A DNA stretch of 64,000 bases from Planctomycetota bacterium (GCA_017853435.1 JAFMJN010000001.1:2603-66602), one strand, 5' to 3'. Numbered from the stretch's first letter, positions 33,131 through 53,502 are shown. Notes: generated from the sequence alone by a model not told the origin. Translations and numbers: made by a program.

Positions 33131-33251
33131 CAAAATGTCTCCGCGGTGCGGAAGCAAACCCCTGTCGCGCAGGAAGATGGCACACCATCCTCGGTCCACG
33201 CGGGGAGGGGAATGTTAGGAGATGGGACGTCGGGGTTCAAACCGCCGCACG

Positions 33252-33856: not shown

Positions 33857-34852
33857 TCAGAGCGTACCGTCGATCCAAAGGTTGTAAAGGCGTTCGATCC
33901 GGAGGTTCCACGCGAGGAATTCGAGCGTGCCGACCGGTTCCGTGACGAGGCCGGCTTCGATTTCCCCCGAAACCTCGACCCAAGAGGCCGTTCGGGGCGG
34001 AATCCGGCGCAAAAGACGCACGATCTCGAATCGACGACGCCCGGAGCCGTCGTCGACCGAGAGGATTCCCGTGCGCTCGCCGGGAGCGAGGGCGAACGCC
34101 CGATCGGCGACCGCCGGTGCCAGGCTTTCACGGGCGACCGGGGGCATCCGCCCCCCCGCCCGAGCGGTTTCGTGGGTCGAATACTTCATCGCCAACGCGG
34201 CCATGTCGGCGCCCGCGTCAAGTTTCGCGGCGACTTCCTTCGCCGTCGCTTCGTCGTCGACGAGGATGATCTGCAATTCGACGCGATCCGCGCGCAACCC
34301 GTCATAGCGGACGACGCGGGAGAGTTTCCATCGCTCCACGAGATCGTCGCGGCGCGCGGCCTTCCAGTCGTCGAGCGACTGCCGATATTCGAGGCGCACG
34401 AAGGATTCCGGCGTCGCCCCTTTTCCGTAGGCCTTGAGGGCCCGCAGCGCGAGATCCTCGACCGCCTTCGCGAGTTGCGCGTCGACCACGTCTTCGGGGA
34501 CCTTCAAGCCGTGCTTGCGGACTTCCTGCTCCACCACTTCCCGAACGACGAGTTGATTCAGCGCGGCGAACGCTTGTTGGCGAAGCGTCGCGCCCGGGGC
34601 CCCGGCGGACTGGGTTCTGAAGAGATGTCGGACGACGTCGTCGCCGGTGAAGACCCGATCTCCCACGCGCGCCACGGGTCGACCGCCGGCCGTCGCGACC
34701 GGAGTCGCCGACGCGGGTGCCGGAGGCGCCGGGAGAACTTCGACGGACGAAGCCCCCGCGACGACGGGCGTCGGCGGCGGCAACGGGCGCTGCGGCGTGC
34801 ATGCCGCAAGCATGCACGCGAGTAGAAGCCCCGAGGGGCGGAATCCCCTCAC
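33857..34852 (-). CDS. Lipoprotein with a parvulin/SurA-like PPIase-type domain (possibly degenerate). Last gene of the pseudopilin operon.
   Basis: GTG at 34852 overlaps the upstream stop (GTGA). Lipobox LLLACMLAAC. RVELQIILVDDEATAKEVAAKLDAGADMAALAMKYS resembles a PpiC-type PPIase domain. Confidence 0.45.
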   Translation of the reverse strand: MRGFRPSGLLLACMLAACTPQRPLPPPTPVVAGASSVEVLPAPPAPASATPVATAGGRPVARVGDRVFTGDDVVRHLFRTQSAGAPGATLRQQAFAALNQLVVREVVEQEVRKHGLKVPEDVVDAQLAKAVEDLALRALKAYGKGATPESFVRLEYRQSLDDWKAARRDDLVERWKLSRVVRYDGLRADRVELQIILVDDEATAKEVAAKLDAGADMAALAMKYSTHETARAGGRMPPVARESLAPAVADRAFALAPGERTGILSVDDGSGRRRFEIVRLLRRIPPRTASWVEVSGEIEAGLVTEPVGTLEFLAWNLRIERLYNLWIDGTL

Positions 34853-36294
34853 TTGTACGAGACGCCGCGATCGCGCATGTGACCTTGGCAACGCGGGCAC
34901 ACCGCGCGAAGGACGTCGCCCTGCGAGCCGGAGAACTGGATGTAGCCCTTCGCGCCGCAGCGTTCGCAGTCTTCCCACTTCTCGCCCGTGACTTCGACCT
35001 TCTTCGCGTTTTCCGCCCAGAACGCCATCATCCACTGCTCGCGCTCGGACGACTGGGAACGGGTCCACCATTCCTCCTTGGTCGGAGGCTTCGGCAGACG
35101 ATCCTGAGGCGGGGCGGCTTGCTGGCCGTTGCGACCCTGCTGACGCGCTTGTTGCGCGTAGGCCTGCGCCATCGCGCGCTGCATCTCCGCTTGGAGTTGC
35201 TGCGCCTGCTTCGCGACGCCGAGGATGACGAACGACCCGGATCCGTACATCGCGAATCGGGTGGCATGCCACCGGCGATCCTCCCACATCTTCTCGACCT
35301 CGTTCTTCGGGTCGAGTTTGTGGCGCGCGGCGAGGTCGGCCACGACTTCCTTGTGGATTTCGGAGCGGAGCTTCCGGCGTGCTTCGTCGAGCGTCAGTTT
35401 CTCGTCGCGGGAGAGCGCGCGGATCTTGTTCTTCAGGACGAGGTCGTATTCGTTCGCGACGATGCGACGGAAGTACTCGTAGCGCTTCTTGGCGAAGGAC
35501 TCTCGATAGGTCGTGATCTCGGCGCGAATACCGGCGGGAACGTCGGGCAGCTTTTCGATCTCGTCGAGGGCGGCGACCGCCTTGTCGAATTGATTCAACA
35601 TCGCCTGTTGGCGGGCGCGGTCGAGTTCGTCGCGGAGCACCTTGTTCTTCGCCAACGCCTCGAGCCGTTCGAGCGTGTTGGCGATCCAATCCTTTTGAAA
35701 CTCGGCGTCGGCGGCCCGAACCTTGAGCAGATGACCGACCGCCTGCTCGTAAAGCCCCAGGGCGTCGGCGAGGCGGGCGAGATCCATGTGGGCGGCGACG
35801 TCGTCGTCGGTCGCTGCGGCTTCGGCTTCGCGCTTCGCGAAGTAGTCGGCCGACTTCCAAATCGCCGTCACGGGCACCTGCGTCTGTTCGATCCCGTCCT
35901 TCACGATGTTGGCTCGCGGGATCACCTGCTTCGTGCCCGCGACCATGACCGACAATTCCTTGTCGTTCTGCGCGTCGATGCGACCGACGACCTCGTCGCC
36001 GGTCTTGAGCGTGATCCGAACGCCCGGCTCGGAGGGAATCCGACTCGATTCATCCTCCTTCAATCCGCGCGCGATCATGATCCGGTTGCGATCCGCCTCC
36101 CGAATCAACGACCACGGAACGAACACCGTGCCGCCGCCGTCGAGGAGCTTGACGCGAAGGCCGCGATCGTTCGCCTCGAGAATGCTGACGTGCAGGTAGC
36201 GTCCGTCGACGAGCACGAGATCCTCGGCGTGGAGCCACGCCGGGCAGAGGACGAGGACGAGAAGGGCGAGTAGACGGCGCATGGCTGTCTCCAT
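34849..36294 (-). CDS. Secreted protein with helical repeats and a C-terminal CxxC...CxxC zinc-ribbon-like motif.
   Basis: Signal peptide MRRLLALLVLVLCPAWLHAED. C-terminus CERCGAKGYIQFSGSQGDVLRAVCPRCQGHM. The ATG overlaps the pseudopilin stop by 1 nt (TAATG). Confidence 0.45.
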   Translation of the reverse strand: METAMRRLLALLVLVLCPAWLHAEDLVLVDGRYLHVSILEANDRGLRVKLLDGGGTVFVPWSLIREADRNRIMIARGLKEDESSRIPSEPGVRITLKTGDEVVGRIDAQNDKELSVMVAGTKQVIPRANIVKDGIEQTQVPVTAIWKSADYFAKREAEAAATDDDVAAHMDLARLADALGLYEQAVGHLLKVRAADAEFQKDWIANTLERLEALAKNKVLRDELDRARQQAMLNQFDKAVAALDEIEKLPDVPAGIRAEITTYRESFAKKRYEYFRRIVANEYDLVLKNKIRALSRDEKLTLDEARRKLRSEIHKEVVADLAARHKLDPKNEVEKMWEDRRWHATRFAMYGSGSFVILGVAKQAQQLQAEMQRAMAQAYAQQARQQGRNGQQAAPPQDRLPKPPTKEEWWTRSQSSEREQWMMAFWAENAKKVEVTGEKWEDCERCGAKGYIQFSGSQGDVLRAVCPRCQGHMRDRGVSYK

Positions 36295-36746
36295 TATTGC
36301 GGCCTTCCGGTGCGACCCCGGAGGATGGCCTGATTATCCGACGGCAGCGCGATCGGAAGGTAACCGAATTCGTAGGTGCGTTCGCCGCCCGGAGCGGGAA
36401 CGACGAGGGTGACGCGGGCCAACACTTCCCGACCGGCATCGTCGCCGGGAACCGACTCGAAGAGGTAACGGCACTTCCAGCGGTTCGACCCGCCGAGACC
36501 GAACTCCCCGTCCCCCCGGCTCTTGCCGCCCTTCGAGCCGCTCGCGACCCGCGCGGCGGCCTCGTTCGAAATACGCTCCACGGCCTCGGGCAAGAGCAAC
36601 GCGGCATCCATGCGTTCCGCCGCCTCCGCTTCGAGATCGAGGGCTCCGGAAAACAGGGCGATGACTCCCGACATCCCGATGACCAAAAGTCCCATGGCCA
36701 CGAGGATTTCGACGAGCGTGAATCCTTTTTCGCCGCGACGGGTCAT
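36294..36746 (-). CDS. Prepilin-type N-terminal cleavage/methylation-domain protein (minor pseudopilin).
   Basis: KGFTLVEILVAMGLLVIGMSGV class III signal motif at the N-terminus. ATG at 36746. 4-nt overlap with the upstream gene. Confidence 0.7.
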   Translation of the reverse strand: MTRRGEKGFTLVEILVAMGLLVIGMSGVIALFSGALDLEAEAAERMDAALLLPEAVERISNEAAARVASGSKGGKSRGDGEFGLGGSNRWKCRYLFESVPGDDAGREVLARVTLVVPAPGGERTYEFGYLPIALPSDNQAILRGRTGRPQ

Positions 36747-37912
36747 CGGGTGGTCTCCGTGTAGTCGGCGCGTCCGGTCGGCGGGCGCACGGTCAGACGG
36801 TAGGTCTTTCCGACATTGACGGCCGTGCCGGGCGCGTGCTCCCCGACCTCCGAACGCCGGCGACCGCGGGCGACGCGCGCACCGCCCGCCACCACGTCGT
36901 CGACCTCGCACCATTCTCCGCCGACGGACACCAAGCGATCGCGGTCGCCGAGACGCGGGAGACGTCCCGGTTCATCGACGACGAGTTCACGTTCGCCGGG
37001 GCGCAACGGACGCACGAGGCGGGCCTCGGGGCGTCCCGGGGTCCCGATGGTCAACGTGATGCCGAGACGTCGAGGGAAGACGTCGTCCCGCTCGTCCGCG
37101 AGCGACGCGGGCCCGCGCGCGAGCGCGAACTGCTCGGGCGGCAAGAGGGCGCGCGTGGAATCCCACGTCTCGCGACCCGAGGCGTTCGGCGGAGCGTCGA
37201 GCAAGGCGGCTTCGTCTTCGATCGACGGAACCGAGTCGCCCGCATAGACCCGGAGGAGCAGCACGCCGGTGACGACGGGCGAGAGATTGCGGCGGACCCA
37301 AGCGGCGTCGGCGCCCGCCGGGGCGTCGTCTCCGAAGAAACCGCCCTGCGCGAGCGCGGGCGTCCGCACGCCGCGCCACAAGGTCAACACGCCCGGAGGA
37401 TCGACGTCCTCCTGCGTCAACGCCCAGCAGACTTCCATGAGGCCCGCCGGGGGCGCGAGTTGCTCGCGCGCGCCGGTCCCCGGATCTCCGCCGGTCCACG
37501 CCGCCTCGGGTTTTCCGATTTCAGGAAGCCCTCGGGCGGAACCGTCGGTCGGCTGGGACTCCGGAGTCGGGACGGGTGCCGGGCGCGCGCCGGCCGAGCG
37601 CAGCACGGGATGCTCCGACTCGCCCTGCGGAAGAGCCCGCACCAAGCGGATCATCGATTGCGGTCCGCCGCCGACGCGCGTCGCCGAGACGACGAAACGC
37701 CCGCCGGCCCCCGTGTGGATATTCGCGAGATCGTCTTCGAGAAGACCGAGCACGGTCGATGCGGACGCGAGATGCTGCCCGCTGCGTTCACCCGCGTGAT
37801 AGAGGTCGAACGAGTTCCTCATCAACTGGACGAGGAGCGTCCCGAGCGTCCCGAGCAGCGCCATCGCGGCCAGCAATTCGACGAGAGAAAGCCCCGAGGT
37901 GCGGCGACTCAT
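36743..37912 (-). CDS. Prepilin-type N-terminal domain protein (large minor pseudopilin, 389 aa).
   Basis: GLSLVELLAAMALLGTLGTLLVQL at the N-terminus. ATG at 37912 overlaps the upstream gene by 4 nt. Confidence 0.6.
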   Translation of the reverse strand: MSRRTSGLSLVELLAAMALLGTLGTLLVQLMRNSFDLYHAGERSGQHLASASTVLGLLEDDLANIHTGAGGRFVVSATRVGGGPQSMIRLVRALPQGESEHPVLRSAGARPAPVPTPESQPTDGSARGLPEIGKPEAAWTGGDPGTGAREQLAPPAGLMEVCWALTQEDVDPPGVLTLWRGVRTPALAQGGFFGDDAPAGADAAWVRRNLSPVVTGVLLLRVYAGDSVPSIEDEAALLDAPPNASGRETWDSTRALLPPEQFALARGPASLADERDDVFPRRLGITLTIGTPGRPEARLVRPLRPGERELVVDEPGRLPRLGDRDRLVSVGGEWCEVDDVVAGGARVARGRRRSEVGEHAPGTAVNVGKTYRLTVRPPTGRADYTETTR

Positions 37913-40900
37913 CGACGTTCCTCCCGGGTCAACGTGCGCGTTTCGTCCATCCAGAGGACTTCGACTTTTTCCAGGATCGGCGACATCTTCCATTCGTGAC
38001 GCGCCAGATTGACCGGATCGAAACACCCGGATTCGAACGAGACTCCGAAGCGCACGTCGAAACCGTCGCCGTGGGCTCGGATGGCGTGCGGCTGTTTCCC
38101 GTCGGCCGCGGGATCGTCGAACCGCATCACGTACGGAGCGACCGCTCCCGGACCCGCCCACGGCGCATCACGGCGGAGACGCACCGTCGCCGTGAGACGC
38201 ACGCTGCGCGAGGGGCTTTGTTCCTCCCAGCGGAATCCGTCGAACCATGCGCCGTCGAGCGGCAACGAGAATCCGTACCACGCGAGTTCCGGACTATCGT
38301 TGTCCCGCGAACCGCGATCCCAATGGCGGAACGGCATTTCGAGGACGATGGCTTCCGCGTCGTGGGCACGGGTGACGGTGCCGAATCGACCGCGGAAGAG
38401 TCCGCCCGCACGCTCGCCCTTTTCGTCGAGGCGCGGCGGCATCGTCAGCGTGTTTTGGTTGCGAGCGGCCGAATAGTGGATGAGTTCTTCGTCCACGAGA
38501 ACGAGCCCGCCGTTCGCGACGAAATCGCCGGTGGAGGCGAGATTCAGGTCCGTGGCGTCCGCCGCGAGCGGCCCCTGAAGCATCGAGACGGGGACGAAGT
38601 CGAGGAAGACCGCGGAGGTTCCCCAACCGTGCTTCTGCGGAGTCGTATTCATGAAGCCGCGGATGCAGCGCAGGAGCGCCGGTCCGCCGCCCTTCCCCGT
38701 CCCGATCTGGCGATACGCGATGATCTCGTCGCCGACCTGGACGAGACCCGCGTCGTTTTCGGGGAGAACCGACTGCAGGGGTTCGTCGGCGAGAACCTTG
38801 GTGCCGTCCGGGAGCGTCGCATAAAGTGGCGGCTGTTGCGCGAAGCCTTCGCGCAGGACCCACACCGTGCGACACAAGGGAATCTCGTCGGTCGACTCGT
38901 CGATTCCCTGAACTTGCGTGACGGACGCGCCTCCCGACGTGTTGCTCGTCGACGACGCGTTGAGTCCCATCGTCGCGTGATCCCAAACGATGAAACGCTC
39001 GTCGGTGGTCGGAGCGATACGGACTTCGTCGAGGCGCCCCGACAGCGGCGACAACGCCCCCGACGTGCCCTGTCCCCCCGCCGCCGCCAACGCACCGTTT
39101 CCGCGGATACGCGGAAGTTCGCCGGAGGGGAACTTGAGGAGACGCGTGTAGGTCTCGCGCGACGGGTCCTCGACGGGAACTTGTCGCACGGTGAATTCCT
39201 GACCGCCGGTCGCGAAAGCCGCGAGCCCGATCGAGGGATTACCGTTGACCGCTTCGGGGATATTCGCCGACCACGCGACGTCGAAACGACGACGAATGCC
39301 GCCCCCCGATGATTCGACGGTGACGGAGTCCCCCCAACCGGGTCCGGGCATCGACGGCACCGGAACCGAAGTCGGCTGCCCCGGCTGCGGATTCGTGACG
39401 GGAATCGTCCCGATACCGGGGAACATCGGGACGCGGAACACCGGGGCGACTTCCTCGTTGGATCCGTGGATCGCGGCACCTGCCGCAAGCAGGTTGTCGT
39501 AGCCGAAGATCGTGGTTCCACCCTGCGAGCGGGACCGCAACGCTTGATTCACGAGCAACGGGGCCGCGGGCGTCGGATTCGTGATCGACTCGAGAAGCCG
39601 CTGCACGGCGTTGTCGAGGCGCGGGCCGTCGGCGTTCACGAGAAGGTTGCGCCCCGTGTCGCGGTAGGTGTACCGGATCCACTCGACCTTGTGCTGCTGA
39701 ATGTCGGAGAAGTTCGGGACCCCGACGGAAACGAACTCGGGGTTGATCCCGTTTTGTCCTTGGCGCGGCTCGAAGTAGCTCGAGACGTTCGTGACTCCGA
39801 TCGAAAGCGGAATGACCCGGCACAGGGTCGGAACGTTCGCCGCCGAGCCTTGACCGGCACGCTTCACCCAGTGCTTTTGACGCGTTTGGGAAATGACCAA
39901 GTTGCCGCCGACCTGCCCCGTGATGGGGTTGTCGGTCGGCGAGGAAAGTCCGAGAAGGGTCGTCCCCGCACGCGACTGGTAGGTCGCGAGTTCGATGACG
40001 GTCGGGGCAAGGCCGCCGAGATTCACGCCGCCGGGCAGCGTCTGACCGGTGATGCTCGAGACGATGAGGACGTAGCCGCCGGTCGGCTGGAAACACGAGA
40101 AATCCGGTACGGATCCCGTCGCGAGCACGAGATCCAGCCGATCGCCGTTCGGCTTCGCGGGGTCGAGGATCTCCATCGTGATCGGAGGAGGTCCGCCCGC
40201 CGGAGCCCCGGGGCCGCCGCCGACGGTCAACGTTTCGACCGCGTTCGACGCGAACGACGCGAGATTGAAGGGGCCCAAATCGGAAGCGAGTTTCCCGCCG
40301 CCCTTCGCGATCGCGACGCCGCCGCGATCCTGCTGCGGGAGGAGCGGCAGCGAATAACCGAACAGTTCGACGCGCTCACCCGCGGCGTGGTCGATCGGGC
40401 TCGTCCCGCGACGCCCGCGGCCGTTGCCGCCTCCGTTCGGGTAGGTGATCACCGAGAACGACGTTCCCGTGCGCTCGAATTCGACGATCTCGCGACCGAC
40501 CCAAGCGGCACCGCGATCAGGCCATCCATCGGCGTCCTCCGTCGTGAACGTCGTATCCGCGCGCGCCATCGAACCGGCGAGACGCGTCGAGTACTTCGCC
40601 TTCCCGCGCTTCATGCCGTCCCACCAAATCGCCACATCGGAGGGTTTCGAGCCCTTGTAGGAAAGGCCCGCGTGGTACCACGTGTCCGACTTCCACACGC
40701 CACCTTCGGGGGTCCATGTGGTTTCGGCGACCTCTTCGATCGTCGCAGCGGGATTCGGCAGCGTGCGATCCGCCACGCGCGCCTTCACGCGACCGTCCGC
40801 GTCGCGCGACAAGGTGATGAACTGATTCGGATCGTCCGACGCCTGCAGGTGGAAGAACGTCGCCTGCGACGGCGCGCCGTCGAAGCGGAACCACCCGTCG

Positions 40901-43979: not shown

Positions 43980-43989
43980 ACGTGCGCTT

Positions 43990-44616: not shown

Positions 44617-44617
44617 C

Positions 44618-47464
44618 CTACTTCTCCTTCGTGGTCACGACGGTCGCGTTGTCCGCGGACCACGAGACCTTTTGATCGAGCGCGGCCTGCGAAAACACCC
44701 AAAGTTCGAAGGTGCGCTTCCAGTTGCGGATGTCCTGCAACACCGCCGAGGCGACGACCTCCTTGTTCGCGAGGATGTCGACGCGACCTTCGCGCGGATC
44801 GGCCCAACGGATTTCGAGACTGACGACGCCGCCCGCGAAGGTCGACGTGGTCGGTTCCCAATCCGTCATTTTCCCCTTCTCGAGGCGGCGCCAAACGAGC
44901 CGACCTTCCGGCGAGAAAGCGACCTGCACGCCCCCCCAAGGGAGGTAGCCCGCCGGACGATCCTCCGGGAATCCCGGCCACTTCTCTCCGCCCGCACGAC
45001 CTTGATTCATCGCGATGAGCGCGATGCCGGCGTGGACGCCCTGTTGTTTCGCCACGTCGAGATCGACTCCGAAGGAGACGAAGCGGTCGCCTTGGCGTTC
45101 CTGCCAAACGATCGTCGGCTTGTCCGACAACGTGCGCTGTTGCCCTTCGAAGACGAGTTTCTGGTCGACGAGGGCCGGAGCGACGCCCGCACCGATTTCC
45201 TTCTTCCACTCGCGGCCGATCTGCGTCCCCGACCGGGAGAAACCGTCGGACCAAAGGAGCTTCGACCGCTGCGCCGTGATGGCGGCGTTGGCGGACGTCG
45301 CCCATGCGGCGAGCGCTCCGCCCTTCGACGCGGTATCGGCGACGCGCTGCATGATCTGCAGAGCCTCGCCTTCGTTCGACTTCTGGTACTGGTGGAACGC
45401 CGTGGCCGCGAGCCACGCGGGATCCTTCAGATCCGCGGCGGACGCCTTCGCGACCAGCGCGTCGGCGTCGGCCATACGACGTCGGCGCACCGCGGTCAGC
45501 AGACGGCGAGGCCCGACGCCGGGGTACCCCGGTTCGACCACGGCGAGCCGATCGTAAAAGCGCGAGGCACGCGCGAGATCGCCCTCGGCGTACGCGGCAT
45601 CACCGAGAGCCGCGAGAAGATCCGGATCGTCGGGCGATGCATCGAGCGCCCCGAGAAGCACCTCGCGAGCCTTCACGGGGTCGCCGCTCATGAGCAACGC
45701 GCGACCCCAAGCGGGTCGCAGGGCGGGGTCCGACGGTCCCGTCTCCGTCGCGGCGGTCGACGCGACGCCGAGCGCGGCATCGTCCTTGCCCGATTGTTCC
45801 TCGACGGCGGCCGACGCGGCCCCGGCGCGCGCGGCGAGAAGCGGATCGAGTTCCGGCACAAGCGCCAACGCCGCTCGCGCACCGCCGACGTCGCCCGTCA
45901 GCAACTTCGCGGCTCCCGAGAGGTGCATCAACGTGCCGCTCGCCGGGAACAACGCCAACGCGGCGGCCGACGCGGTCTTCGCTTCCTCGATCTTGCCGAC
46001 GGCGATCAACGCCGTCACCGACAGCGCCAACGCCCGTTCGTGCGCGCGCTGTCGATCGGCGTCGCCTCCCGCTCCTGCGGTCGTCGCGCGACGCCAACGA
46101 TCCATCACCACGTCGAGTTGGCCTTCGGCGTTCTTCGGATCGCCGACCGCGAGATACGCTTCGGCGAGCAACATGCGAATGCGTTCGGCCCGATCGCCGT
46201 CGGACGACGCGAGCGCGTCACGAAGCGGAGAGATCGCATCGCGAGCCTTGCCGGTACGCAGGAGAGCCTCTCCGAGCGTCGCGGCGGCGACCGCATCGGC
46301 ACCCTTCGCCATCGCTTCGCGCGCCGTCGCCGCGGCTTCGTCGCGGAGACCGAGACGCATCTCGAGGCGCGCCTTGCGAGCGAGCAGCGACGTCGCGCCG
46401 GGGTGCGCCAGGAGTCCGTCGCGCAGGACGCTCATTTCCGCGTCGTAGTCGAACAGCGCTTCACGGCAATCGGAGAGCATGACGAACACGTCGATCGCGC
46501 GTTCACCTTTCTTGCGGAGTCCTTCGAGGAATTCGACGCACAGGGCGTATTCCTTGGCTTCGAAAATCCCGCGAACCGCATCGAGAGCTCCGACGGCGTC
46601 GTCCGACTTCAACGTGCGGCGACGGGTCTCGAAACGGTTGACGGGGTTCTCCGCGAGGACGATTTCCGCGACGACGTCCGCCGTGTAGACCGTGCGTGCG
46701 AGTAGTCTGCCCTTCTTGTCTTCACGGAAGGCGACTTTCAACGCCTTCATCTTCTCGGTGCGTGCGATCTCGGAAAGATCCGTGTTGCCGCGCAGCGCGT
46801 TGTATTCCGCGAGGAGATCCCAACGGTTCTTGTTCCGATCCGCGGCCATGAATTCACCGAGGGCCGACTGTCCGTTCGTGAACGTGATCCGATCGAGCCG
46901 CTTGCGGCGATCCGCTTCCGATTCTTCGGCCCGGCGTTGTTCCTCTTCGCGACGGATGCGGTCCGCCGCCGACATTCGCAAGCGGTCGGCCAGTCCGAGA
47001 GCACCGTCGACGGAGGTCGGGACGACGCCTTCCGCCGTCGGAACCGGAGGCGCATCGGTGCTCGCCGAAGGCACCACGGTCGCTGCAGGCGCGGCGCCGG
47101 TGGCCGTCGGATTGAATGATCGGCGAAGTGCGCGGCCGAGCGTTCCGCCGAGATCGAACGGAAGCACCGGTGCGGGCACCGGCAGTCGCGGCATCACCGG
47201 GGCGGCGAGTTCGAGAGGCGGCAATTCGCGCGTCTCGACGGGAGCCTCGTAGGGATTCCGCCCTTCGGAGGACCACGTCGAAACGTCGGGCTTGATGAAT
47301 CGCCCCGGAGACGGTTTCGCGGCGACTTCATCGGGCGGGGCGCTTCCGCCACCGCCACGGCGCCCCGTCGAGGGCGCTCCCGACGAACCGCCGAGCGCCA
47401 CCAGTCCCCCAAGAAGCGCCAGCGTCAGCACGAACGTGATCGGTTCCTTCTTCATGGACATCAT
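44618..47464 (-). CDS. Secreted TPR-repeat protein (948 aa) with a C-terminal beta-rich domain.
   Basis: Signal peptide (MKKEPITFVLTLALLGGLVALG). Central TPR-like Ala/Leu/Asp-rich repeats. The last ~200 aa are beta-type (WQERQGDRFVSFGVDLD...VSLEIRWADPREGRVDI). 1-nt gap to gspG. Confidence 0.5.
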   Translation of the reverse strand: MMSMKKEPITFVLTLALLGGLVALGGSSGAPSTGRRGGGGSAPPDEVAAKPSPGRFIKPDVSTWSSEGRNPYEAPVETRELPPLELAAPVMPRLPVPAPVLPFDLGGTLGRALRRSFNPTATGAAPAATVVPSASTDAPPVPTAEGVVPTSVDGALGLADRLRMSAADRIRREEEQRRAEESEADRRKRLDRITFTNGQSALGEFMAADRNKNRWDLLAEYNALRGNTDLSEIARTEKMKALKVAFREDKKGRLLARTVYTADVVAEIVLAENPVNRFETRRRTLKSDDAVGALDAVRGIFEAKEYALCVEFLEGLRKKGERAIDVFVMLSDCREALFDYDAEMSVLRDGLLAHPGATSLLARKARLEMRLGLRDEAAATAREAMAKGADAVAAATLGEALLRTGKARDAISPLRDALASSDGDRAERIRMLLAEAYLAVGDPKNAEGQLDVVMDRWRRATTAGAGGDADRQRAHERALALSVTALIAVGKIEEAKTASAAALALFPASGTLMHLSGAAKLLTGDVGGARAALALVPELDPLLAARAGAASAAVEEQSGKDDAALGVASTAATETGPSDPALRPAWGRALLMSGDPVKAREVLLGALDASPDDPDLLAALGDAAYAEGDLARASRFYDRLAVVEPGYPGVGPRRLLTAVRRRRMADADALVAKASAADLKDPAWLAATAFHQYQKSNEGEALQIMQRVADTASKGGALAAWATSANAAITAQRSKLLWSDGFSRSGTQIGREWKKEIGAGVAPALVDQKLVFEGQQRTLSDKPTIVWQERQGDRFVSFGVDLDVAKQQGVHAGIALIAMNQGRAGGEKWPGFPEDRPAGYLPWGGVQVAFSPEGRLVWRRLEKGKMTDWEPTTSTFAGGVVSLEIRWADPREGRVDILANKEVVASAVLQDIRNWKRTFELWVFSQAALDQKVSWSADNATVVTTKEK

Positions 47465-47470
47465 CGGGGC

Positions 47471-48316
47471 TCAGCGCAGCGCGCCTTCGGGGTTGACGTC
47501 GAGGGCGCGGAGATCGAAGCGGGCTTCCACGCGACGCCGGTCGTTCGGATCGGCACCCTTCCGTTCCTTCACGGATCCGTCGGGCGGGAAATCCAAACTG
47601 GTGACCACGGCTTTTTCGACCGCGAGCCAACGGCCGGCGAGCGCTTCGCTGCCGGTGTTGTCCTGCGCGAGCGCGCGCACCACGATCGACACGGCGCGCG
47701 GGTGGCCGACGACGGACAGCGACACCTTCGTCCCGGCGACGAACGGGGTCTTCGCGCCCGGGCTCTTCTTTTCCGGCTTGTCGATTTCGATGCGTTCGAC
47801 GCGAGCGATCCCGCCCTCCACTTCGCGTTCCGCCGCGAGAGCGATCACGAGGACCTGTTCGACGACGTCGAGTCCGCGCATCCAATGTTCTTGATCGGAT
47901 CGCTGGGACGGGAAGGCGTCGGGCAGGCCGAGTCGTTGGTCGACGTCGATATTGCGGACGGCACAGGCTTCGAGCGTCCCGTTTCGGAAGCGTTCGAGTT
48001 GCGCGTTGTAGTAAAGATCGGAATCGGCGACGTCGGATGCGATGCGCCATTCCTTCGCCGGAACGCGGGCGACGTTCGTACGCAGACCGTCGTAGCCCGC
48101 TTCAAGCGTGCCGCGGTTCTCGACCGCCTTGCGGAGGTCGAATCCGGCGGGCAGCGCCTGCTTCTGGTCCGCCTTCGCACGACCGATCTTCGCGCGCGCG
48201 GCTTGAATACGGCCGTCGAACGCTCCGTCGATCAAGAGGACGCCGACGAGCAACAAGAGCCCCCCCGCGACGACCGACATGATGAACTTGCGGTGTTCCT
48301 GCCAAATGTCGCCCAT
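47471..48316 (-). CDS. Bitopic inner-membrane protein, GspM/PilO-like assembly component (tentative).
   Basis: Single N-terminal TM (IMSVVAGGLLLLVGVLLI) followed by a helical then alpha/beta periplasmic domain. Sits immediately downstream of the GspL-like gene. Confidence 0.4.
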   Translation of the reverse strand: MGDIWQEHRKFIMSVVAGGLLLLVGVLLIDGAFDGRIQAARAKIGRAKADQKQALPAGFDLRKAVENRGTLEAGYDGLRTNVARVPAKEWRIASDVADSDLYYNAQLERFRNGTLEACAVRNIDVDQRLGLPDAFPSQRSDQEHWMRGLDVVEQVLVIALAAEREVEGGIARVERIEIDKPEKKSPGAKTPFVAGTKVSLSVVGHPRAVSIVVRALAQDNTGSEALAGRWLAVEKAVVTSLDFPPDGSVKERKGADPNDRRRVEARFDLRALDVNPEGALR

Positions 48317-48319
48317 GGC

Positions 48320-49990
48320 TCACGTCCCTCCGGTCAAGTCGACGCGCACCGTGTAGGAAAGCACGCCGCCGCCTCGAGCCGCGCCGCCTTTTTGGTCGGC
48401 GATCGACACGTCCGAGCCCGGAAGCGCTTTTTGAAGGCCGAGGACGAAATCCTGCAGAGCCTTCTCGGGCTGCCCCGCCTGCGACGTCGCCTGCCCCGCG
48501 ACGTAGGCGACGGTGCGCAGCACACGCGGCGACTTCGGGTCCTTCGGGTCGGTGGGGCGCGCCTCGCGCTGAACCGTGACCGAGCCGACCCATGCGCCTT
48601 CCGGCAGCGCCTCTTGAACGACCTTTTGAATCCGTGCGAGTCCTTCGCCGGGTTCCGTCCATCCGGCGAGGGCGGCCATCCTTTGGTTGATGTCGCGGAT
48701 ACGTTCCTGTTCGGTATCCCACGTCTTGCGGTCGCGCTTCGCCTTATCGGCCGCGCGGACTTCCGCCGCGGCGTCCTTTTCGAGTCGTCCGGCTTCGGCC
48801 ATGCCGTCCCAAAGGCGGAACCCCAGGAATCCTGCGGCGGCGACGCCCGAGAGGATCATCCACAAAGTTCGTTCACGGAAACTTCGTCGCGTCCGCGTCG
48901 CCGAAGTGACCACGTCGAGTTTGAACGCGGCCGGATCGCCCGACGTGATCATGAGCCCCAAAGCCACCGCGAACGCGCCCGGGTCTTCGAGGAACGTCTT
49001 CGCGTCCTCGGCGGGTAACGCGGAGGTGTCGAGCGCGTTTTCCGGTTGGAACCGAACGACGGGGCAGCGGAACGCGGCGGACAGGTAGTCGGAGAGACCT
49101 CGGAGGCGGGCACCTCCGCCCGAAAGCAGGATGCGCGAGGGTTCGAGGTCGCGAATCTTCGTCTGCGCCCGAATGAACGCGAGACTGGACTGAATCATGG
49201 CGGTTAGTTGGCCGACCGGGCCGACCAACGCGTTCGCCACTTTCTCTTCCTTGCCCGATGCGTACGCCGCGCGGCCCTTCGGGCTGACGTTGCCCGACTG
49301 GTGTTTCAGCGCCTCGGCATCCGCCGTTCCGAGTCCGAACCCGGACGCGACGGCCTCGGTCAATGCACGACCTCCGCCCGCCAAGTTGCGTGCGAACAGC
49401 AACTCGCCGTCCTTCACCAAAGCGATTTCGAGGTTGCGGTCTCCGATATCGACGAGAAGCGCGGCTTCGCCGTCACGCGGGTCACCCGTCGCGAGGAAGG
49501 CGTTCGCCAAGGCGACCGACGACGGAGTCCCGCAAGACGGGTCGCCGACCGTGGCGGCCGCGTCATGGCGGGCCGAGAGGAAGCCCTCCTTGCAGACGGC
49601 CACCATGACGTTTTCTTCTCCCGCCGACGCGTTCGGCAGTTGAAGGAGATTCCAGTCGCTCGCGAGCGCGTCTCCGACGGTCTGCGACATGTCGCGGACC
49701 TCGACGTCCATAAGGAATCGAAGGCGCCACAGCGGAACCTTCGGAACGGTCGTGTAACGGATGATCAGCGAAGGGCCGGAGATGCCGAAACGCACACCGG
49801 GCACGCGTCCCTTCGGGCCGAGCTCCGCCGCGAGTGTTCCGACCGCTGCGAGGGTCGCCGATTCCCCGTCCCCCGACGAATCGACCGAAGCCTGAAGCAC
49901 ACGCTGCAATTTCCAACGCGTCCCCGCACGCTCGGCGACGACCATTCGGACATGGTTGGATCCGAGATCGAGTCCTGCGAAAACCTTCAC
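48320..49990 (-). CDS. GspL-like protein (or PilM-PilN fusion). Cytoplasmic actin-like domain, TM segment and periplasmic domain.
   Basis: MKVFAGLDLGSNHVRMVVAE...LLVDIGDRNLEIALVKDGELLFARNL actin-like ATPase-fold motifs. TM segment TLWMILSGVAAAGFLGFRLW. Coiled-coil periplasmic tail. Confidence 0.6.
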   Translation of the reverse strand: MKVFAGLDLGSNHVRMVVAERAGTRWKLQRVLQASVDSSGDGESATLAAVGTLAAELGPKGRVPGVRFGISGPSLIIRYTTVPKVPLWRLRFLMDVEVRDMSQTVGDALASDWNLLQLPNASAGEENVMVAVCKEGFLSARHDAAATVGDPSCGTPSSVALANAFLATGDPRDGEAALLVDIGDRNLEIALVKDGELLFARNLAGGGRALTEAVASGFGLGTADAEALKHQSGNVSPKGRAAYASGKEEKVANALVGPVGQLTAMIQSSLAFIRAQTKIRDLEPSRILLSGGGARLRGLSDYLSAAFRCPVVRFQPENALDTSALPAEDAKTFLEDPGAFAVALGLMITSGDPAAFKLDVVTSATRTRRSFRERTLWMILSGVAAAGFLGFRLWDGMAEAGRLEKDAAAEVRAADKAKRDRKTWDTEQERIRDINQRMAALAGWTEPGEGLARIQKVVQEALPEGAWVGSVTVQREARPTDPKDPKSPRVLRTVAYVAGQATSQAGQPEKALQDFVLGLQKALPGSDVSIADQKGGAARGGGVLSYTVRVDLTGGT

Positions 49991-52446
49991 TTGTTCCCCT
50001 CCCCGGCGGAGCGCAAACGCGACAGCCGCGCTTCCGCGTCACGGGCGGATTCCGATCCCGGATGACGTCGGATGACCGATTCGAACAGCGCGGCCGCGAC
50101 GTCGCGACGCCCCCTCGGATCACCGGCGTAGTCGATCGCGCGCAGGAGCGAGGCCTGCGCCTCGGCCGTCGCCCGGGCTCCCGACGTGGTCACGCGATCC
50201 TTTTCGAGAGTCTGCGCGAGTTGTTCGAATGCGTCTCCGACGGGAGCGCCCTTCCATTTTCCCGCAGCGTCGCGCACCGACGCGATCAACGCGCCGTCGG
50301 TCACGATCGTACGGAAGAAACGCGCGTCGTCCGCCCTCGCCTCGAAATCGCGCTGAAGATTGCGCGCGACTTCGGCAAGTCGATCGACCGCCGTACGCGC
50401 TTCGGATTCGATGCGATCCTCGAACGGGAAGCGTGCGAGTACCTGTCCGAATGCGGACAGCGCTTCTCCGAAGCGTCCGGCGCGCTCCGCTTCGCGCGCT
50501 TTCGCGAGGAGCACCCCGGCCGCTGAAAGTTCGGCTTCGAACGAGGTATCGATCGCACAGCGGAAACTCGTGGCCGCGCCTCGTTTCATCACGAGGACGG
50601 CGACTCCGCGAGCGTCGATCAGCGAGACGGGGATCGACGCGGCGCTTCCATCCATCGCGACGAAGCGCAACCGGACGCGTGCGCCCGCGTCGCCGACGAT
50701 GACGGCCGACGCCGGCGACGCGGCGAACGGTCCCCGTCGACGGACTCCGGTCTCGCCTTCAACCGTCGTCACGGTGACTTCCGCCGGACTACCGGGGACG
50801 ACCGCGGCGAAGTCCGTCTCGCCGGAGGCGCCCGCGAGTTCCCAGCCGATGGTCGCCGGTTCTCCCGTCAATGTCGCCTTGAGTCCTCCAACTGCCGGCG
50901 TCGGGCCGCCGAATCCGGGCCCCGCCGGAGCTTTCGGATCACGGAACGACCACGCTCCGAAGTCGCGGAACACGACGCGACCGGGGCGTGTCGCACGCAC
51001 GGCCCCCGAAGATCCCATCGCGACGGCGAGATTCCCCGCCTTCGTCGCGGAGTCGGGCGGCGGATCGACCGCCTCCACGGACACATCGTCGAACGCGGCT
51101 TCCCCGCGGCCTGCGAGGATGAGTCCGACGCGCACCTTCGTGTATCCGCCCGGATCGGCGAAAACACCGGAAACCAATTTGAAATCGGTCGACTCTCCCG
51201 CAGGGAGTACGTCGCGGACCGCGACCGATTCGTCGGCGTTGAGCCAGTCGAGGCACAATCCCGCGTCCGCTCCCGAATCGGCGCGGACGCGCGCCGTCAC
51301 GCGAAAAGCGCGACCGGCGGCGACATCGACGGCACCCGACGCCCCTTCGAGCCGTACGATTCCGGGCGTCGGTCCGCGTTCGGCGCGCGCCAACGTCATC
51401 GCCACGCCCGAAGGTCCGTCCACCATGCCGACCGATGTGGGATCCGCCGGATCGAGCGGTTTCCATCCTTCCGCTTCGGCCGATTCGCCCTCATCGGCCA
51501 CGGGTTCGAACGACCACCATTTTTCGGGAACGAGGTTCGACGCGACGTGCCTCGACGCACCCGCGACGGAAACATTTCGCGCCTCGTTGCGCATCCATAG
51601 GTAGCCGACGCCCCCCAGAAGCCCGACGATGACGAGAAGCATCACGATGTTGAAAACGGTGTCGGAGCGCTTCGGCGGAACCTTCACTTCGAAGCTCGCG
51701 CCACCCATGTCGAACGCGGGCGCAATCACGGTTCGCGCCTCCGGTTCGTCGGGCGCCTCTTCAAGCGCTTCCGGAGGCGGAGCGAAGTCAGATGCGGCAC
51801 CGATGCCGAACGTCGCGGTGAATGATCCGAACGTCACGACCGATCCGGAAGCGAGTTCCGCTTCCTCGACCGGTTCTCCATCGACCTTCGTTCCATTGGA
51901 GGAACCGAGGTCCTTGACCATCCAACCCGATCCCTTTTTCCGCAATTCGGCATGATCGCCCGACACGGACGGGTCGGAAAGCACGAGCGCGTTGCGCGGC
52001 TTGCGCCCCACGGTGAACGACTCACCCGAAATCTTGACGACCTCGCCGCGTCGCGAACCCGTCCCGAGAACGAGGACGACGTCTTGTTCGAGCGAGATTT
52101 CGTCCTCGCCCCAACCGTCTTCAACCGCGGGTTCGGAAGCCTCGACGCCGGCGTCGAGAAACCGTATGGAAACGGATCCGACGGAGATCACGTCGCCGTC
52201 TTGAAGTTCGAACTTCGAAACCTTGCGACCATTCACCAAGGTCCCGTTGGAGGAACCGAGATCTTCCACGAACCAAGCGGAACCGTCCTTGAAGAATCGG
52301 CAATGCTGCCGAGACGCTTCGGGGACGTCGAGGACGACGTCGTTGGTCGACGATCGGCCGGCTTTGACCTCGCTTCCGAGGGCCAATTCCCGAAAACCGG
52401 CGGCGTCCGTGATGGCAAGTTTTGGCATGGTGCGGTGCGCGTCCAC
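49987..52446 (-). CDS. Membrane protein with two N-terminal FHA domains, one TM segment and a large periplasmic domain. First gene of the pseudopilin operon.
   Basis: Two FHA cores (GRSSTNDVVLDVPEASRQHCRFF...VEDLGSSNGTLVNGRKV and GRKPRNALVLSDPSVSGDHAELR...VKDLGSSNGTKVDG). TM segment TVFNIVMLLVIVGLLGGVGYLW. An alternative start is the ATG at 52428 (MPKLAIT). 4-nt overlap with the GspL-like gene. Confidence 0.65.
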   Translation of the reverse strand: MDAHRTMPKLAITDAAGFRELALGSEVKAGRSSTNDVVLDVPEASRQHCRFFKDGSAWFVEDLGSSNGTLVNGRKVSKFELQDGDVISVGSVSIRFLDAGVEASEPAVEDGWGEDEISLEQDVVLVLGTGSRRGEVVKISGESFTVGRKPRNALVLSDPSVSGDHAELRKKGSGWMVKDLGSSNGTKVDGEPVEEAELASGSVVTFGSFTATFGIGAASDFAPPPEALEEAPDEPEARTVIAPAFDMGGASFEVKVPPKRSDTVFNIVMLLVIVGLLGGVGYLWMRNEARNVSVAGASRHVASNLVPEKWWSFEPVADEGESAEAEGWKPLDPADPTSVGMVDGPSGVAMTLARAERGPTPGIVRLEGASGAVDVAAGRAFRVTARVRADSGADAGLCLDWLNADESVAVRDVLPAGESTDFKLVSGVFADPGGYTKVRVGLILAGRGEAAFDDVSVEAVDPPPDSATKAGNLAVAMGSSGAVRATRPGRVVFRDFGAWSFRDPKAPAGPGFGGPTPAVGGLKATLTGEPATIGWELAGASGETDFAAVVPGSPAEVTVTTVEGETGVRRRGPFAASPASAVIVGDAGARVRLRFVAMDGSAASIPVSLIDARGVAVLVMKRGAATSFRCAIDTSFEAELSAAGVLLAKAREAERAGRFGEALSAFGQVLARFPFEDRIESEARTAVDRLAEVARNLQRDFEARADDARFFRTIVTDGALIASVRDAAGKWKGAPVGDAFEQLAQTLEKDRVTTSGARATAEAQASLLRAIDYAGDPRGRRDVAAALFESVIRRHPGSESARDAEARLSRLRSAGEGNK

Positions 52447-53497: not shown

Positions 53498-53502
53498 GCG
53501 CG

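What the first reader, a model, noticed from the sequence alone, without database searches (positions are those of the whole stretch)
33857..52446. 18.6-kb translationally coupled 12-gene pseudopilin / T2SS-like operon headed by a double-FHA membrane protein
On the minus strand, 12 consecutive genes are joined by 4-nt (ATGA/GTGA) or 1-nt overlaps or gaps of 10 nt or less. In order these are the FHA-FHA-TM protein, a GspL-like gene, a GspM-like gene, a 948-aa TPR secreted protein, a GspG-like major pseudopilin and a GspH-like pseudopilin. They are followed by a 1684-aa GspK-like giant, a 389-aa pseudopilin, a 150-aa pseudopilin, a Cys-rich secreted protein and a parvulin-like lipoprotein. Four proteins carry canonical GFTLVELL-type prepilin leaders. 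Canonical T2SS/T4P systems need a GspE/PilB ATPase, a GspF/PilC platform, a secretin and a prepilin peptidase, and none of these is present in the operon or the window. FHA, TPR, zinc-ribbon and PPIase-like proteins are not standard components. This looks like a non-canonical pseudopilus module with possible phosphothreonine-dependent control.
Basis: partly seen in the sequence, partly recalled or inferred. Interest (0 to 1): 0.8.

Follow-up and report, generated by a model that had tools for sequence, protein, structure and literature searches.

The report
FHA-headed type II secretion-like pseudopilus operon
This is a real, tightly packed 11-gene operon from an uncultured planctomycete that encodes the filament subunits and inner-membrane assembly proteins of a type II secretion-like machine. 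It is always led by a phosphothreonine-reader (FHA) membrane protein and includes a giant lectin-bearing tip subunit; the arrangement is widespread in metagenomes, and I found no published description of it.

Summary
All junctions are overlaps or gaps of at most 10 nt.

HMM, profile and fold evidence support most of the assignments:
- g2 is a PilM-type GspL-like fusion.
- g3 belongs to the GspM/PilO family.
- g5 is a GspG-type major pseudopilin and keeps the GspG calcium-loop motif.
- The H-, I- and J-like calls rest only on N-terminal pilin segments and gene order.

No GspD, E, F or O is present in any frame of the window.

The order FHA, L, M, TPR, G, H, giant K is conserved in dozens of metagenomic loci. 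An FHA gene lies upstream in 49 of 49 loci with enough flank, and a GspG-like gene lies downstream in 34 of 34. Among the 80 metagenome loci and their closer relatives, no GspE-type ATPase or secretin lies within 10 kb; one locus has an adjacent Tad-type ATPase cluster. More distant homologues sit in complete T2SS clusters. The missing parts are therefore most likely encoded elsewhere, as in split type IV pilus loci.

The phosphothreonine-binding residues of the FHA domain are invariant, but phospho-control itself is inferred.

Verdict: an uncharacterised, Planctomycetota-specific variant of a known kind. It is interesting but not categorically new.

The parts
49987..52446 (-). g1: inner-membrane protein with two cytoplasmic FHA domains, one TM helix (about residues 260-286), a periplasmic CBM-like jelly-roll and a C-terminal TPR/YfiO-like helical domain (819 aa).
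   Evidence: Pfam FHA E 1.5e-41 with two stretches. Closest PDB sequences are the pThr-binding FHA proteins GarA, OdhI and Rv1747. TM helix. The periplasmic profile matches CBM-type modules, including phage fibre gp20 at E 7e-8 and CBMs of GH10, endoglucanase and hyaluronate lyase. An FHA gene lies directly upstream of the g2 homologue in 49/49 loci. G147, R148, S162, H165 and N184 are invariant in 45 homologues.
48320..49990 (-). g2: PilM-type actin-like cytoplasmic domain fused through a TM segment to a periplasmic domain. This gives it a GspL-like architecture, equivalent to a PilM+PilN fusion (556 aa).
   Evidence: Pfam PilM_2 scores 52.3 bits against a cut-off of 27. NCBIfam Amuc_1101_fam scores 124 bits, below its 650-bit cut-off, and TIGR01175 pilM scores 80.6 bits. 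The weakest homologues are GspL (PilM_2+T2SSL) in a canonical gspC-M cluster and a PilM-like gene between a secretin and GspE.
47471..48316 (-). g3: bitopic GspM/PilO-family protein (281 aa, N-terminal TM).
   Evidence: The window protein alone gives no significant Pfam hit. Of 61 positional homologues, 8 hit T2SSM (best E 3.9e-5), 7 hit T2SSM_b and 1 hits PilN. The 61-sequence profile has M. xanthus PilO (3jc8) as its best PDB hit, E 1.4e-5. The L003 homologue has a faint Amuc_1100 hit.
44618..47464 (-). g4: membrane-anchored or secreted 948-aa TPR protein with a Pro-rich linker and a C-terminal non-TPR beta-rich domain.
   Evidence: TPR_14 and TPR_19 at E about 1e-11. N-terminal hydrophobic segment at residues 6-30. 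An ORF of about 900-1000 aa follows g3 in 41 of 42 loci with enough flank; in L010 a 556-aa ORF follows g3 and the TPR gene comes after it. 38 of the 39 ORFs scanned are TPR proteins.
43990..44616 (-). g5: GspG-type major pseudopilin (208 aa).
   Evidence: Leader MTSGNKG/FTLVE. TIGR01710 gspG E 7e-10 and N_methyl. E. coli GspG aligns over the whole length at E 1.8e-7. The 33-sequence profile has PulG/GspG 5wda as best PDB hit, E 4.6e-16, and matches the GspG C-terminal SxGPDGxxGTxDDIxN loop.
42960..43979 (-). g6: modular minor pseudopilin in the GspH position (339 aa).
   Evidence: Leader RRRQSG/FTIAE. N_methyl E 8.9e-7. The L003 homologue carries Laminin_G_3. The GspH assignment rests on position only.
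37909..42963 (-). g7: giant GspK-type pseudopilin (1684 aa). It has a GspK fold with inserted small beta-barrels at the N-terminus, then a LamG/lectin-like domain and further all-beta modules.
36743..37912 (-). g8: minor pseudopilin in the GspJ position (389 aa), with a C-terminal copy of the E-x-x-E-V...RGxR...H...G motif that is repeated in the giant.
   Evidence: Leader RRTSG/LSLVE. N_methyl E 0.0015, below cut-off. hhalign against E. coli GspJ gives probability 91% but covers only residues 1-65. Motif.
36294..36746 (-). g9: small minor pseudopilin, PilV/GspI-like (150 aa).
   Evidence: Leader RGEKG/FTLVE. TIGR02523 pilV E 3.1e-7, gspI E 0.0013 and N_methyl E 1.7e-7.
34849..36294 (-). g10: secreted 481-aa protein of unknown fold with a C-terminal CxxC-x17-CxxC zinc-ribbon-like motif. 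Proposed periplasmic accessory or chaperone.
   Evidence: Signal-peptide-like N-terminus. No Pfam family. Conserved after g9 in L001-L003; the zinc ribbon is absent from L003.
33857..34852 (-). g11: parvulin-type PPIase / SurA-like lipoprotein (331 aa, GTG start, lipobox LAAC).
   Evidence: Rotamase_2 E 1.9e-8, Rotamase E 4.6e-8 and SurA_N_3 E 5.8e-5. Start and GTGA overlap with g10. Conserved in L001-L003.

Best explanation
The block is the filament-and-assembly-platform operon of a type II secretion-class (type IV filament superfamily) machine. It is specific to a clade of uncultured Planctomycetota.

Shown:
- g5 is a GspG-type major subunit.
- g7 is a GspK-fold tip subunit enlarged by about 1,300 residues of lectin-like and phage-tail-like beta modules.
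- g2 and g3 are the GspL-like (PilM-type) and GspM/PilO-like inner-membrane platform proteins.
- g6, g8 and g9 are further prepilin-leader proteins.
- g1 (FHA-TM-periplasmic) and g4 (TPR) are invariant extra components.
- g11 is a periplasmic parvulin/SurA-like foldase.

Inferred mechanism:
1. The five pilin-like proteins are processed by a PilD/GspO-type peptidase.
2. They are polymerised on the g2/g3 platform by a GspE-type ATPase and a GspF-type platform protein encoded elsewhere in the genome.
3. g9, g8 and g7 form the I-J-K-type initiation complex that caps the filament, and g6 links it to the g5 polymer.
4. g1 is a bitopic ring or scaffold protein. Its topology resembles GspC, PilP or T3SS YscD. 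Its cytoplasmic FHA domain binds a phosphothreonine on a partner, so that a Ser/Thr kinase gates assembly.
5. g10 and g11 help fold or stabilise the very large all-beta tip protein in the periplasm.

Because the tip carries lectin-type modules, I favour a filament whose job is to present a ligand- or glycan-binding tip over a plain secretion piston. I put this at roughly 55:45.
For: Component identities:
- GspG identity.
- GspK fold.
- LamG/lectin and phage-tail modules.
- GspL-like g2.
- GspM/PilO g3.
- TPR g4.
- FHA domains with canonical, invariant pThr-binding residues.
- CBM-like periplasmic domain in g1.
- Foldase g11.

Conserved order across relatives and metagenomes. FHA is upstream in 49/49 loci, GspG-like downstream in 34/34 and the giant in 27/30.

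Distant g2 homologues lie inside clusters that also carry a secretin and GspE. This shows the protein type works with those parts.

An FHA-GAF-sigma54 activator lies immediately upstream in six relatives. An orthologous Ser/Thr kinase lies 4-8 kb upstream in 13 loci.
Against: - No ATPase, platform protein, secretin or prepilin peptidase could be located for this organism or any close relative. None is in the window. None lies within 10 kb in about 80 loci, apart from an adjacent Tad cluster in L051 that is probably a separate system.
- The GspH, GspI and GspJ assignments rest on N-terminal segments and position only.
- Both AF2 models are of moderate confidence (pLDDT 65-69) and were built from 12-13 sequences.
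- No kinase or phosphatase gene is in the window. No phosphorylation target is known.
- No sigma54 promoter was recognisable upstream here.
- CBM- and LamG-like beta-sandwiches are common structural modules, so glycan binding is not demonstrated.
Confidence: 0.75

Rival explanations
1. It is a conventional protein-secreting T2SS whose genes are merely scattered. On this view the G polymer is a short periplasmic piston. The giant K, the TPR protein and the FHA protein are lineage-specific decorations that recognise secreted substrates or dock the secretin, and no surface filament is made.
For: - The major subunit is GspG-type and keeps the calcium-loop motif.
- The tip subunit has the GspK fold.
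- g3 hits T2SSM.
- The nearest complete systems containing g2-like proteins are gspC-M or secretin-GspE-GspG clusters.
Against: - A tip subunit of about 180 kDa, with roughly 1,000 residues of extra beta modules, is hard to fit under a secretin gate as a piston head. This is an inference.
- The lectin-like modules and dedicated foldases resemble the tip-adhesin logic of type IV pili (PilY1/PilC) and of modular pilins (PMC8179133, PMC8833165).
- No substrate genes are evident in the operon.
Confidence: 0.35
2. It is the PilMNO-plus-minor-pilin set of a type IVa pilus, not a T2SS.
For: - g2 passes the Pfam PilM_2 cut-off.
- The g3 profile's best PDB hit is M. xanthus PilO.
- The best NCBIfam hit of g9 is PilV.
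- Split loci and a large tip protein encoded among minor pilins are typical of T4aP (own knowledge; PMC8833165).
Against: - The major subunit is GspG-type, not PilA-type, including the GspG-specific C-terminal loop.
- PilM and PilN are fused as in GspL.
- No PilP, PilQ or PilT lies in the window or within 10 kb of the called genes in relatives L001-L004 and L010. The 80-locus panel was searched only for GspD, E, F and O.
Confidence: 0.2
3. It is a self-contained filament system that needs no GspE-type ATPase, secretin or prepilin peptidase. This is the strongest form of the reader's 'non-canonical' idea.
For: Within the clade of about 80 loci, no GspE-type ATPase, secretin or prepilin peptidase lies within 10 kb, and only L051 has Tad-type ATPase and platform genes nearby.
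Against: - Class III signal peptides with the conserved Gly and Glu5 imply a PilD-type peptidase.
- GspL/PilM-type actin-like domains are ATPase-docking modules in every studied system (established knowledge of T2SS and T4P).
- Distant homologues co-occur with GspE and a secretin.
- Planctomycete pathways are commonly dispersed across the genome.
Confidence: 0.04

Closest known systems
Type II secretion system (Gsp/Pul/Xcp): pseudopilus GspG-H-I-J-K with the GspL/GspM platform
   Same: - GspG-type major subunit with the C-terminal calcium-loop motif.
- GspK-fold subunit lacking Glu5.
- Three further prepilin-leader minor subunits.
- A GspL-like fused actin-domain/TM/periplasmic protein followed by a GspM-family protein.
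- All genes in one operon.
   Different: - No gspC, D, E, F or O in the locus or within 10 kb in dozens of relatives.
- The gene order is L-M-(TPR)-G-H-K-J-I instead of G-H-I-J-K-L-M.
- The L-type protein is PilM-like rather than the proteobacterial T2SSL family.
- GspK is enlarged five-fold with lectin-like and phage-tail-like modules.
- An FHA membrane protein, a 900-aa TPR protein and periplasmic foldases are integral to the operon.
Type IVa pilus sub-operons (pilMNOPQ; fimU-pilVWXY1E of P. aeruginosa; M. xanthus minor pilin/PilY1/TfcP clusters)
   Same: - The machine is split over several loci.
- It has PilM and PilO homology.
- A very large tip-associated protein is encoded among the minor pilins.
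- An accessory periplasmic protein supports the tip protein (TfcP, PMC8833165).
   Different: - The large protein here is itself a pilin (a GspK-fold fusion), not a separate PilY1 beta-propeller.
- The major subunit is GspG-type.
- There is no PilP or PilQ.
- PilM and PilN are fused.
Akkermansia muciniphila MUL2 locus (Amuc_1099-1102), a PVC-superphylum pilus-like system needed for mucin uptake (PMC13174399; Davey et al. 2023, cited there)
   Same: - g2 gives its best NCBIfam hit to the Amuc_1101 PilM-like family.
- A g3 homologue has a faint Amuc_1100 hit.
- Both are PVC-group systems linked, in Akkermansia experimentally, to glycan acquisition.
   Different: - The score is far below the family cut-off (124 against 650 bits).
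- MUL2 has four genes, an archaeal-type pilin and an adjacent secretin-like gene.
- MUL2 has no FHA protein, TPR protein, GspG or giant GspK.
FHA-based threonine-phosphorylation control of other envelope machines: T6SS Fha1/TagH with PpkA/PppA; archaellum ArnA/ArnB; T3SS YscD/PrgH topology
   Same: - An FHA domain is attached to, or associated with, a membrane-spanning nanomachine.
- g1 has the topology of YscD: cytoplasmic FHA, one TM helix and a periplasmic domain.
- g1 hits TIGR03354 (VI_FHA) at E 5.5e-19 and ArnA (5a8i) at E 7e-5.
   Different: - g1 scores below every family cut-off.
- Its periplasmic part (a CBM-like jelly-roll plus a TPR-like domain) is unrelated to those proteins.
- Unlike YscD/PrgH (own knowledge), it keeps the canonical pThr-binding Arg, Ser, His and Asn.
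- I found no description of an FHA component in any T2SS.
Modular type IV pilins, for example Streptococcus sanguinis PilB (PMC8179133)
   Same: A pilin module is fused to a functional adhesin- or lectin-type module displayed on the filament.
   Different: - The scale is different: about 1,300 extra residues and several modules.
- The carrier is a GspK-type tip subunit.
- The host is a Gram-negative planctomycete.

Membership tests
Type II secretion system (Gsp) | GspG-type major pseudopilin: prepilin leader, Glu5 and a C-terminal calcium-binding loop | tested here: met
   TIGR01710 E 7e-10, partial and below cut-off. E. coli GspG aligns over the full length at E 1.8e-7. The 33-sequence profile has PulG 5wda as best PDB hit, E 4.6e-16, and matches the SxGPDG..DDIxN loop.
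Type II secretion system (Gsp) | GspK minor pseudopilin: pilin fold with an inserted domain and no Glu5 | tested here: met
   [not shown]
Type II secretion system (Gsp) | GspH, GspI and GspJ minor pseudopilins | tested here: inconclusive
   Matches cover only the N-terminal helix. g9 hits gspI at E 0.0013 and pilV at E 3e-7. g8 against E. coli GspJ gives hhalign probability 91% over 63 residues. g6 hits N_methyl only.
Type II secretion system (Gsp) | GspL and GspM inner-membrane platform pair | tested here: met
   g2 has PilM_2 plus a TM segment and a periplasmic domain. A distant homologue carries PilM_2+T2SSL in a gspC-M cluster. For the g3 family, 8/61 members hit T2SSM and 7/61 hit T2SSM_b, and the profile's best PDB hit is PilO at E 1.4e-5.
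Type II secretion system (Gsp) | GspE ATPase, GspF platform protein, GspD secretin and GspO prepilin peptidase | tested here: not met
   All four are absent from all six frames of the window and from within 10 kb of the clade's loci. Whether they exist elsewhere in the genome could not be tested with these tools.
Type II secretion system (Gsp) | GspC, the inner-membrane connector to the secretin (HR domain) | tested here: not met
   E. coli GspC gives no tblastn hit. g1 has comparable topology, but its periplasmic part matches CBM-like modules and TPR, not an HR or PDZ domain.
Type IVa pilus machine | PilM actin-like protein, separate PilN, PilO, PilP and PilQ secretin | tested here: not met
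   PilM_2 is above its cut-off and there is PilO-like profile similarity. However, PilM and PilN are fused, and no PilP or PilQ is found in the window or among the called genes of relatives L001-L004 and L010.
Type IVa pilus machine | PilA-type major pilin and a PilY1-type tip adhesin (beta-propeller) | tested here: not met
   [not shown]
Amuc_1101 family / Akkermansia MUL2 locus | NCBIfam NF045709 equivalog score of at least 650 bits, with neighbouring Amuc_1100 and Amuc_1102-type pilin genes | tested here: not met
   g2 scores 124 bits. The neighbours differ. Only a faint Amuc_1100 hit is seen, in one g3 homologue.
Verru_Chthon cassette (TIGR02596-TIGR02600) | Four-gene cassette A-D that passes the TIGRFAM cut-offs | tested here: not met
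   g5, g6 and g9 hit cassette proteins D and B only at E 1e-3 to 1e-2, below the cut-offs. g7 has no hit to protein A.
pThr-binding FHA domain | Conserved Gly-Arg, Ser-x-x-His and Asn-Gly loops | tested here: met
   Both FHA domains of g1 carry these loops. G147, R148, S162, H165 and N184 are invariant in 45 homologues. The closest solved relatives are GarA, OdhI and Rv1747. Actual phosphopeptide binding cannot be tested here.

The most novel reading that the evidence does not exclude
The operon may encode a Planctomycetota-specific, T2SS-derived surface fibre. Its 180-kDa GspK-fusion tip, the LamG-type minor pilin, and the CBM-like domains of the FHA protein (and possibly the TPR protein) would capture polysaccharide for uptake into the enlarged periplasm. 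Assembly would be switched by Ser/Thr phosphorylation read by the FHA domain.

That would supply a genetic basis for the glycan-binding fibres seen on cultured planctomycetes (PMC5394234). It would also be a functional parallel to the Akkermansia MUL pilus-like system.
Probability: 0.15. Interest if true: 0.85.

Novelty: new variant of a known kind. Interest (0 to 1): 0.6.

Why it matters
Type II secretion and type IV pilus machines are defined almost entirely from Proteobacteria and a few other cultured groups. This operon has a conserved architecture in an uncultured planctomycete clade: at least 280 relatives of the L-type protein in JGI metagenomes, and 970 50%-identity clusters of the giant subunit.

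It adds three features to the core:
- an invariant FHA-domain membrane component;
- a 900-aa TPR protein;
- a GspK tip subunit enlarged into a multi-module, lectin-bearing protein served by its own periplasmic foldases.

If the FHA domain gates assembly, this would be a direct link between Ser/Thr signalling and a T2SS-class machine. Such a link is known so far for T6SS and the archaellum. If the tip binds glycans, the system becomes a candidate for the unexplained polysaccharide-binding fibres of Planctomycetes. It also gives annotators a concrete definition for a large set of proteins now labelled 'hypothetical' or 'PulG'.

Tried and rejected
**Locating the missing ATPase, platform protein, secretin and peptidase**
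- Not in the window (Pfam on flanks; six-frame tblastn).
- Not within 10 kb in L001-L010 or in the 80 metagenome loci.
- The one GspE-like hit, in L051, is a Tad cluster (TadZ, CpaF, TadB, TadC) and probably a separate system.
- Searching for g5 paralogues on the large carrier contigs as a route to a second gsp locus found none. The contexts of the weak hits P0259 and P0255 were uninformative.

**Sigma54 promoter upstream of g1**
- No convincing match in the window.
- Only L003 has a good GGCAC-N5-TTGC at -61.

**Sequence searches that gave nothing**
- The giant against PDB gave no significant hit.
- The six-sequence g3 profile against PDB gave nothing.
- hhalign of g3 against E. coli GspM was not significant. 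Only the 61-sequence profile gave a signal.

**Genome-collection scan**
- The three-sequence version returned only three loci.

**Readings rejected**
- Verru_Chthon cassette and Amuc_1101 membership: scores are far below the cut-offs.
- A cluster of unrelated genes or gene-calling artefacts: rejected because of conserved synteny and coupling in relatives.

**Literature**
- Searches for a description of an FHA-headed T2SS-like or PilM operon in Planctomycetes found none.

Full report
**Observation**

The window is high-GC (about 66%) chromosomal DNA. Housekeeping genes (ATP synthase, four aminoacyl-tRNA synthetase genes, IF3, TatC) lie below 30 kb.

Between 33857 and 52446 the minus strand carries eleven consecutive ORFs. 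Their junctions are -4, +3, +6, +1, +10, -4, -4, -4, -1 and -4 nt.

A twelfth gene, scpB (33252-33833), follows after 23 nt. After it comes a 738-aa protein whose L003 homologue has a weak SurA_N_3 hit. Both are syntenic in relatives, but I do not count them as part of the system.

Inside the block there is no sigma-70-like promoter. Terminator-like sites are fewer than in shuffled sequence.

Four products have canonical prepilin leaders. The giant has a GspK-type leader without Glu5.

**What each gene is**

- **g1 (819 aa).** It has two FHA domains (Pfam E 1.5e-41) and one TM helix. The periplasmic half has a profile matching CBM4_9/22-type jelly-roll modules, then a TPR/YfiO-like tail.
- **g2.** It passes the Pfam PilM_2 cut-off. 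Its best NCBIfam match is the Akkermansia Amuc_1101 PilM-like family, far below cut-off. The actin-like domain is fused through a TM segment to a periplasmic domain, which is the GspL architecture.
- **g3.** Alone it gives no significant hit. I collected the gene that follows g2 in 61 loci. Of these, 8 hit T2SSM, 7 hit T2SSM_b and 1 hits PilN. The family profile's best PDB match is M. xanthus PilO at E 1.4e-5.
- **g4.** A TPR protein. An ORF of about 900-1000 aa follows g3 in 41 of 42 loci; in L010 a 556-aa ORF intervenes and the TPR gene comes next. 38 of the 39 ORFs scanned are TPR proteins.
- **g5.** GspG-type. E. coli GspG aligns over its whole length. A 33-sequence profile has PulG as best PDB hit (E 4.6e-16) and matches the GspG-specific C-terminal SxGPDGxxGTxDDIxN loop.
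- **g6, g8, g9.** These are pilin-like at the N-terminus only. An L003 homologue of g6 has a Laminin_G_3 domain.
- **g7 (1684 aa).** It has no Pfam family.
  - A motif (G-x-E-I-I-x-Y ... RG-x-x-GT ... H) recurs in the giant and at the C-terminus of g8.
- **g10.** A secreted protein with a C-terminal zinc-ribbon-like CxxC pair, which is not conserved in L003.
- **g11.** A parvulin/SurA-like lipoprotein.

**What is missing**

Pfam scans of the main flanking ORFs found no GspD, GspE, GspF or GspO. Six-frame tblastn with E. coli GspC-O and a metagenomic GspE and secretin also found none.

**Relatives**

The word-indexed search found only 18 homologues of the giant and 56 of g2. All came from Planctomycetota MAGs.

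The closest genome is 'uncultured planctomycete LaPlata_bin-2350', at 92% identity for g4.

Full-operon synteny, including scpB, holds in L001, L002 and L003, where the giant is 49, 38 and 27% identical.

An exhaustive HMM search with the giant's C-terminal profile found 970 cluster representatives at E<=1e-3, and 441 at E<=1e-30. Most are 1600-1800 aa. A sample carried only the names 'hypothetical protein' or 'PulG'.

A metagenome scan with a g2 alignment gave 280 relatives, of which 80 loci were kept. A tblastn panel over these loci gave the following:

| Feature | Loci with it / loci with enough flank |
|---|---|
| FHA gene directly upstream of g2 | 49/49 |
| GspG-like gene downstream | 34/34 |
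| Recognisable giant | 27/30 |

GC content ranges from 0.53 to 0.77, so the hosts are diverse. Most relatives have one FHA domain. The double FHA is a feature of the window's subclade.

None of the 80 metagenome loci has a GspE-type ATPase, a secretin or a GspO-type prepilin peptidase within 10 kb. L051 is a partial exception: it lies next to a Tad cluster (TadZ, CpaF, TadB, TadC).

The most distant g2 homologues are different. One is a GspL in a canonical gspC-D-E-F-G-H-I-J-K-L-M cluster. Another lies between a secretin and GspE-GspG (L009).

**Interpretation**

The module is a T2SS-class member of the type IV filament superfamily. It encodes the filament subunits and the L/M platform, and it is consistently separated from the motor, platform protein, peptidase and outer-membrane channel.

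Separation by itself is not unusual. P. aeruginosa type IVa pilus genes are split in the same way (own knowledge). The class III leaders and the actin-like ATPase-docking domain argue that the missing parts exist elsewhere. I could not test that: the tools give at most 10 kb around a known protein, and the attempt through g5 paralogues failed.

The unusual features are the invariant extras.

- **The FHA protein.** It has the topology of secretin-connecting ring proteins (GspC, PilP, YscD). Unlike YscD (own knowledge), it keeps the phosphothreonine-binding Arg, Ser, His and Asn. These residues are invariant in 45 homologues.
- **Regulatory neighbours.** In six relatives an FHA-GAF-sigma54 activator lies immediately upstream. 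In 13 loci an orthologous Ser/Thr kinase lies 4-8 kb upstream. Neither is present in the window. Here a tRNA-Arg gene and a variable Rhs island adjoin the operon.
- **Precedents.** Phospho-dependent gating is therefore a reasonable inference. The T6SS Fha1/PpkA pathway and the archaellum ArnA system are precedents (own knowledge; ArnA appears among the PDB hits).
- **The tip.** The giant GspK fusion, the LamG-type minor pilin, the CBM-like domain of g1 and the operon-encoded foldases point to a filament that presents a large ligand-binding tip. Modular pilins (PMC8179133) and the PilY1/TfcP pair (PMC8833165) are the nearest precedents.
- **Link to glycan capture.** A connection to the polysaccharide-binding fibres of planctomycetes (PMC5394234), or to the Akkermansia MUL system (PMC13174399), is possible but speculative.

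**Novelty and score**

Four full-text searches found no description of this architecture. It is not a new kind of machine, because every core part belongs to known T2SS or T4P families. It is a distinct, widespread and uncharacterised variant.

Interest is 0.6. The main open point is where the ATPase, platform protein, peptidase and secretin are encoded, and of which type they are.

Noticed in passing
window 52674-52747 (+) and 52970-63999: A tRNA-Arg(TCG) gene lies about 230 bp upstream of g1, divergently oriented. Beyond it is a lower-GC region (0.56-0.63) with two Rhs-repeat genes (54824-58834 and 59536-63999) and small ORFs. The two Rhs genes share 2,968 bp at 99.97% identity. Similarity to the 92%-identical relative L006 stops about 400 bp upstream of g1, so this looks like a strain-specific island inserted next to the tRNA.
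   Followed up: partly
window 33252-33833 and 30983-33199 (-): scpB follows g11 after 23 nt, and a 738-aa gene follows scpB. This pair is conserved downstream of the operon in L001-L003. The L003 homologue of the 738-aa protein has a weak SurA_N_3 hit. It is unclear whether scpB is co-transcribed or whether the second chaperone-like gene serves the system.
   Followed up: partly
L002 1-21; L010 5052-7124; L014, L015, L020, L022: An FHA-GAF-sigma54-activator (enhancer-binding protein) gene lies immediately upstream of the FHA membrane-protein gene in six relatives. It is absent from the window. L003 has a good sigma54-type GGCAC-N5-TTGC at -61.
   Followed up: partly
L004 1662-2663 and 12 further metagenome loci (L037, L039, L041, L045, L047-L049, L054-L056, L060, L065): An orthologous Ser/Thr protein kinase (40-47% identity) lies 4-8 kb upstream of the FHA gene in one subclade. 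It is a candidate partner for the FHA domain, or it may simply reflect conserved synteny.
   Followed up: no
[not shown]
   Followed up: partly
L007 (CAMARR010000015.1): The record title says 'Candidatus Kuenenia stuttgartiensis' MAG. However, the contig carries this operon with g4 71% identical to the window protein. Kuenenia genomes are low-GC (about 41%, own knowledge), so this is probably a mis-binned or mislabelled contig.
   Followed up: no
L005 (Candidatus Brocadiia MAG, GCA_046538415.1): Only the L-like, M-like and TPR trio is present, without FHA or pseudopilin genes. It lies next to sulfatases, an alginate lyase/heparinase-type gene and a CBM9 protein. This hints that the trio is a separable sub-module and gives a possible polysaccharide context.
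   Followed up: no
L051 747-5241: A Tad-type cluster (TadZ/CpaE-like AAA_31, CpaF-type T2SSE, two T2SSF proteins) lies 3-7 kb upstream of the FHA gene. Among the 80 metagenome loci (L012-L091), this is the only one with any secretion ATPase within 10 kb.
   Followed up: partly
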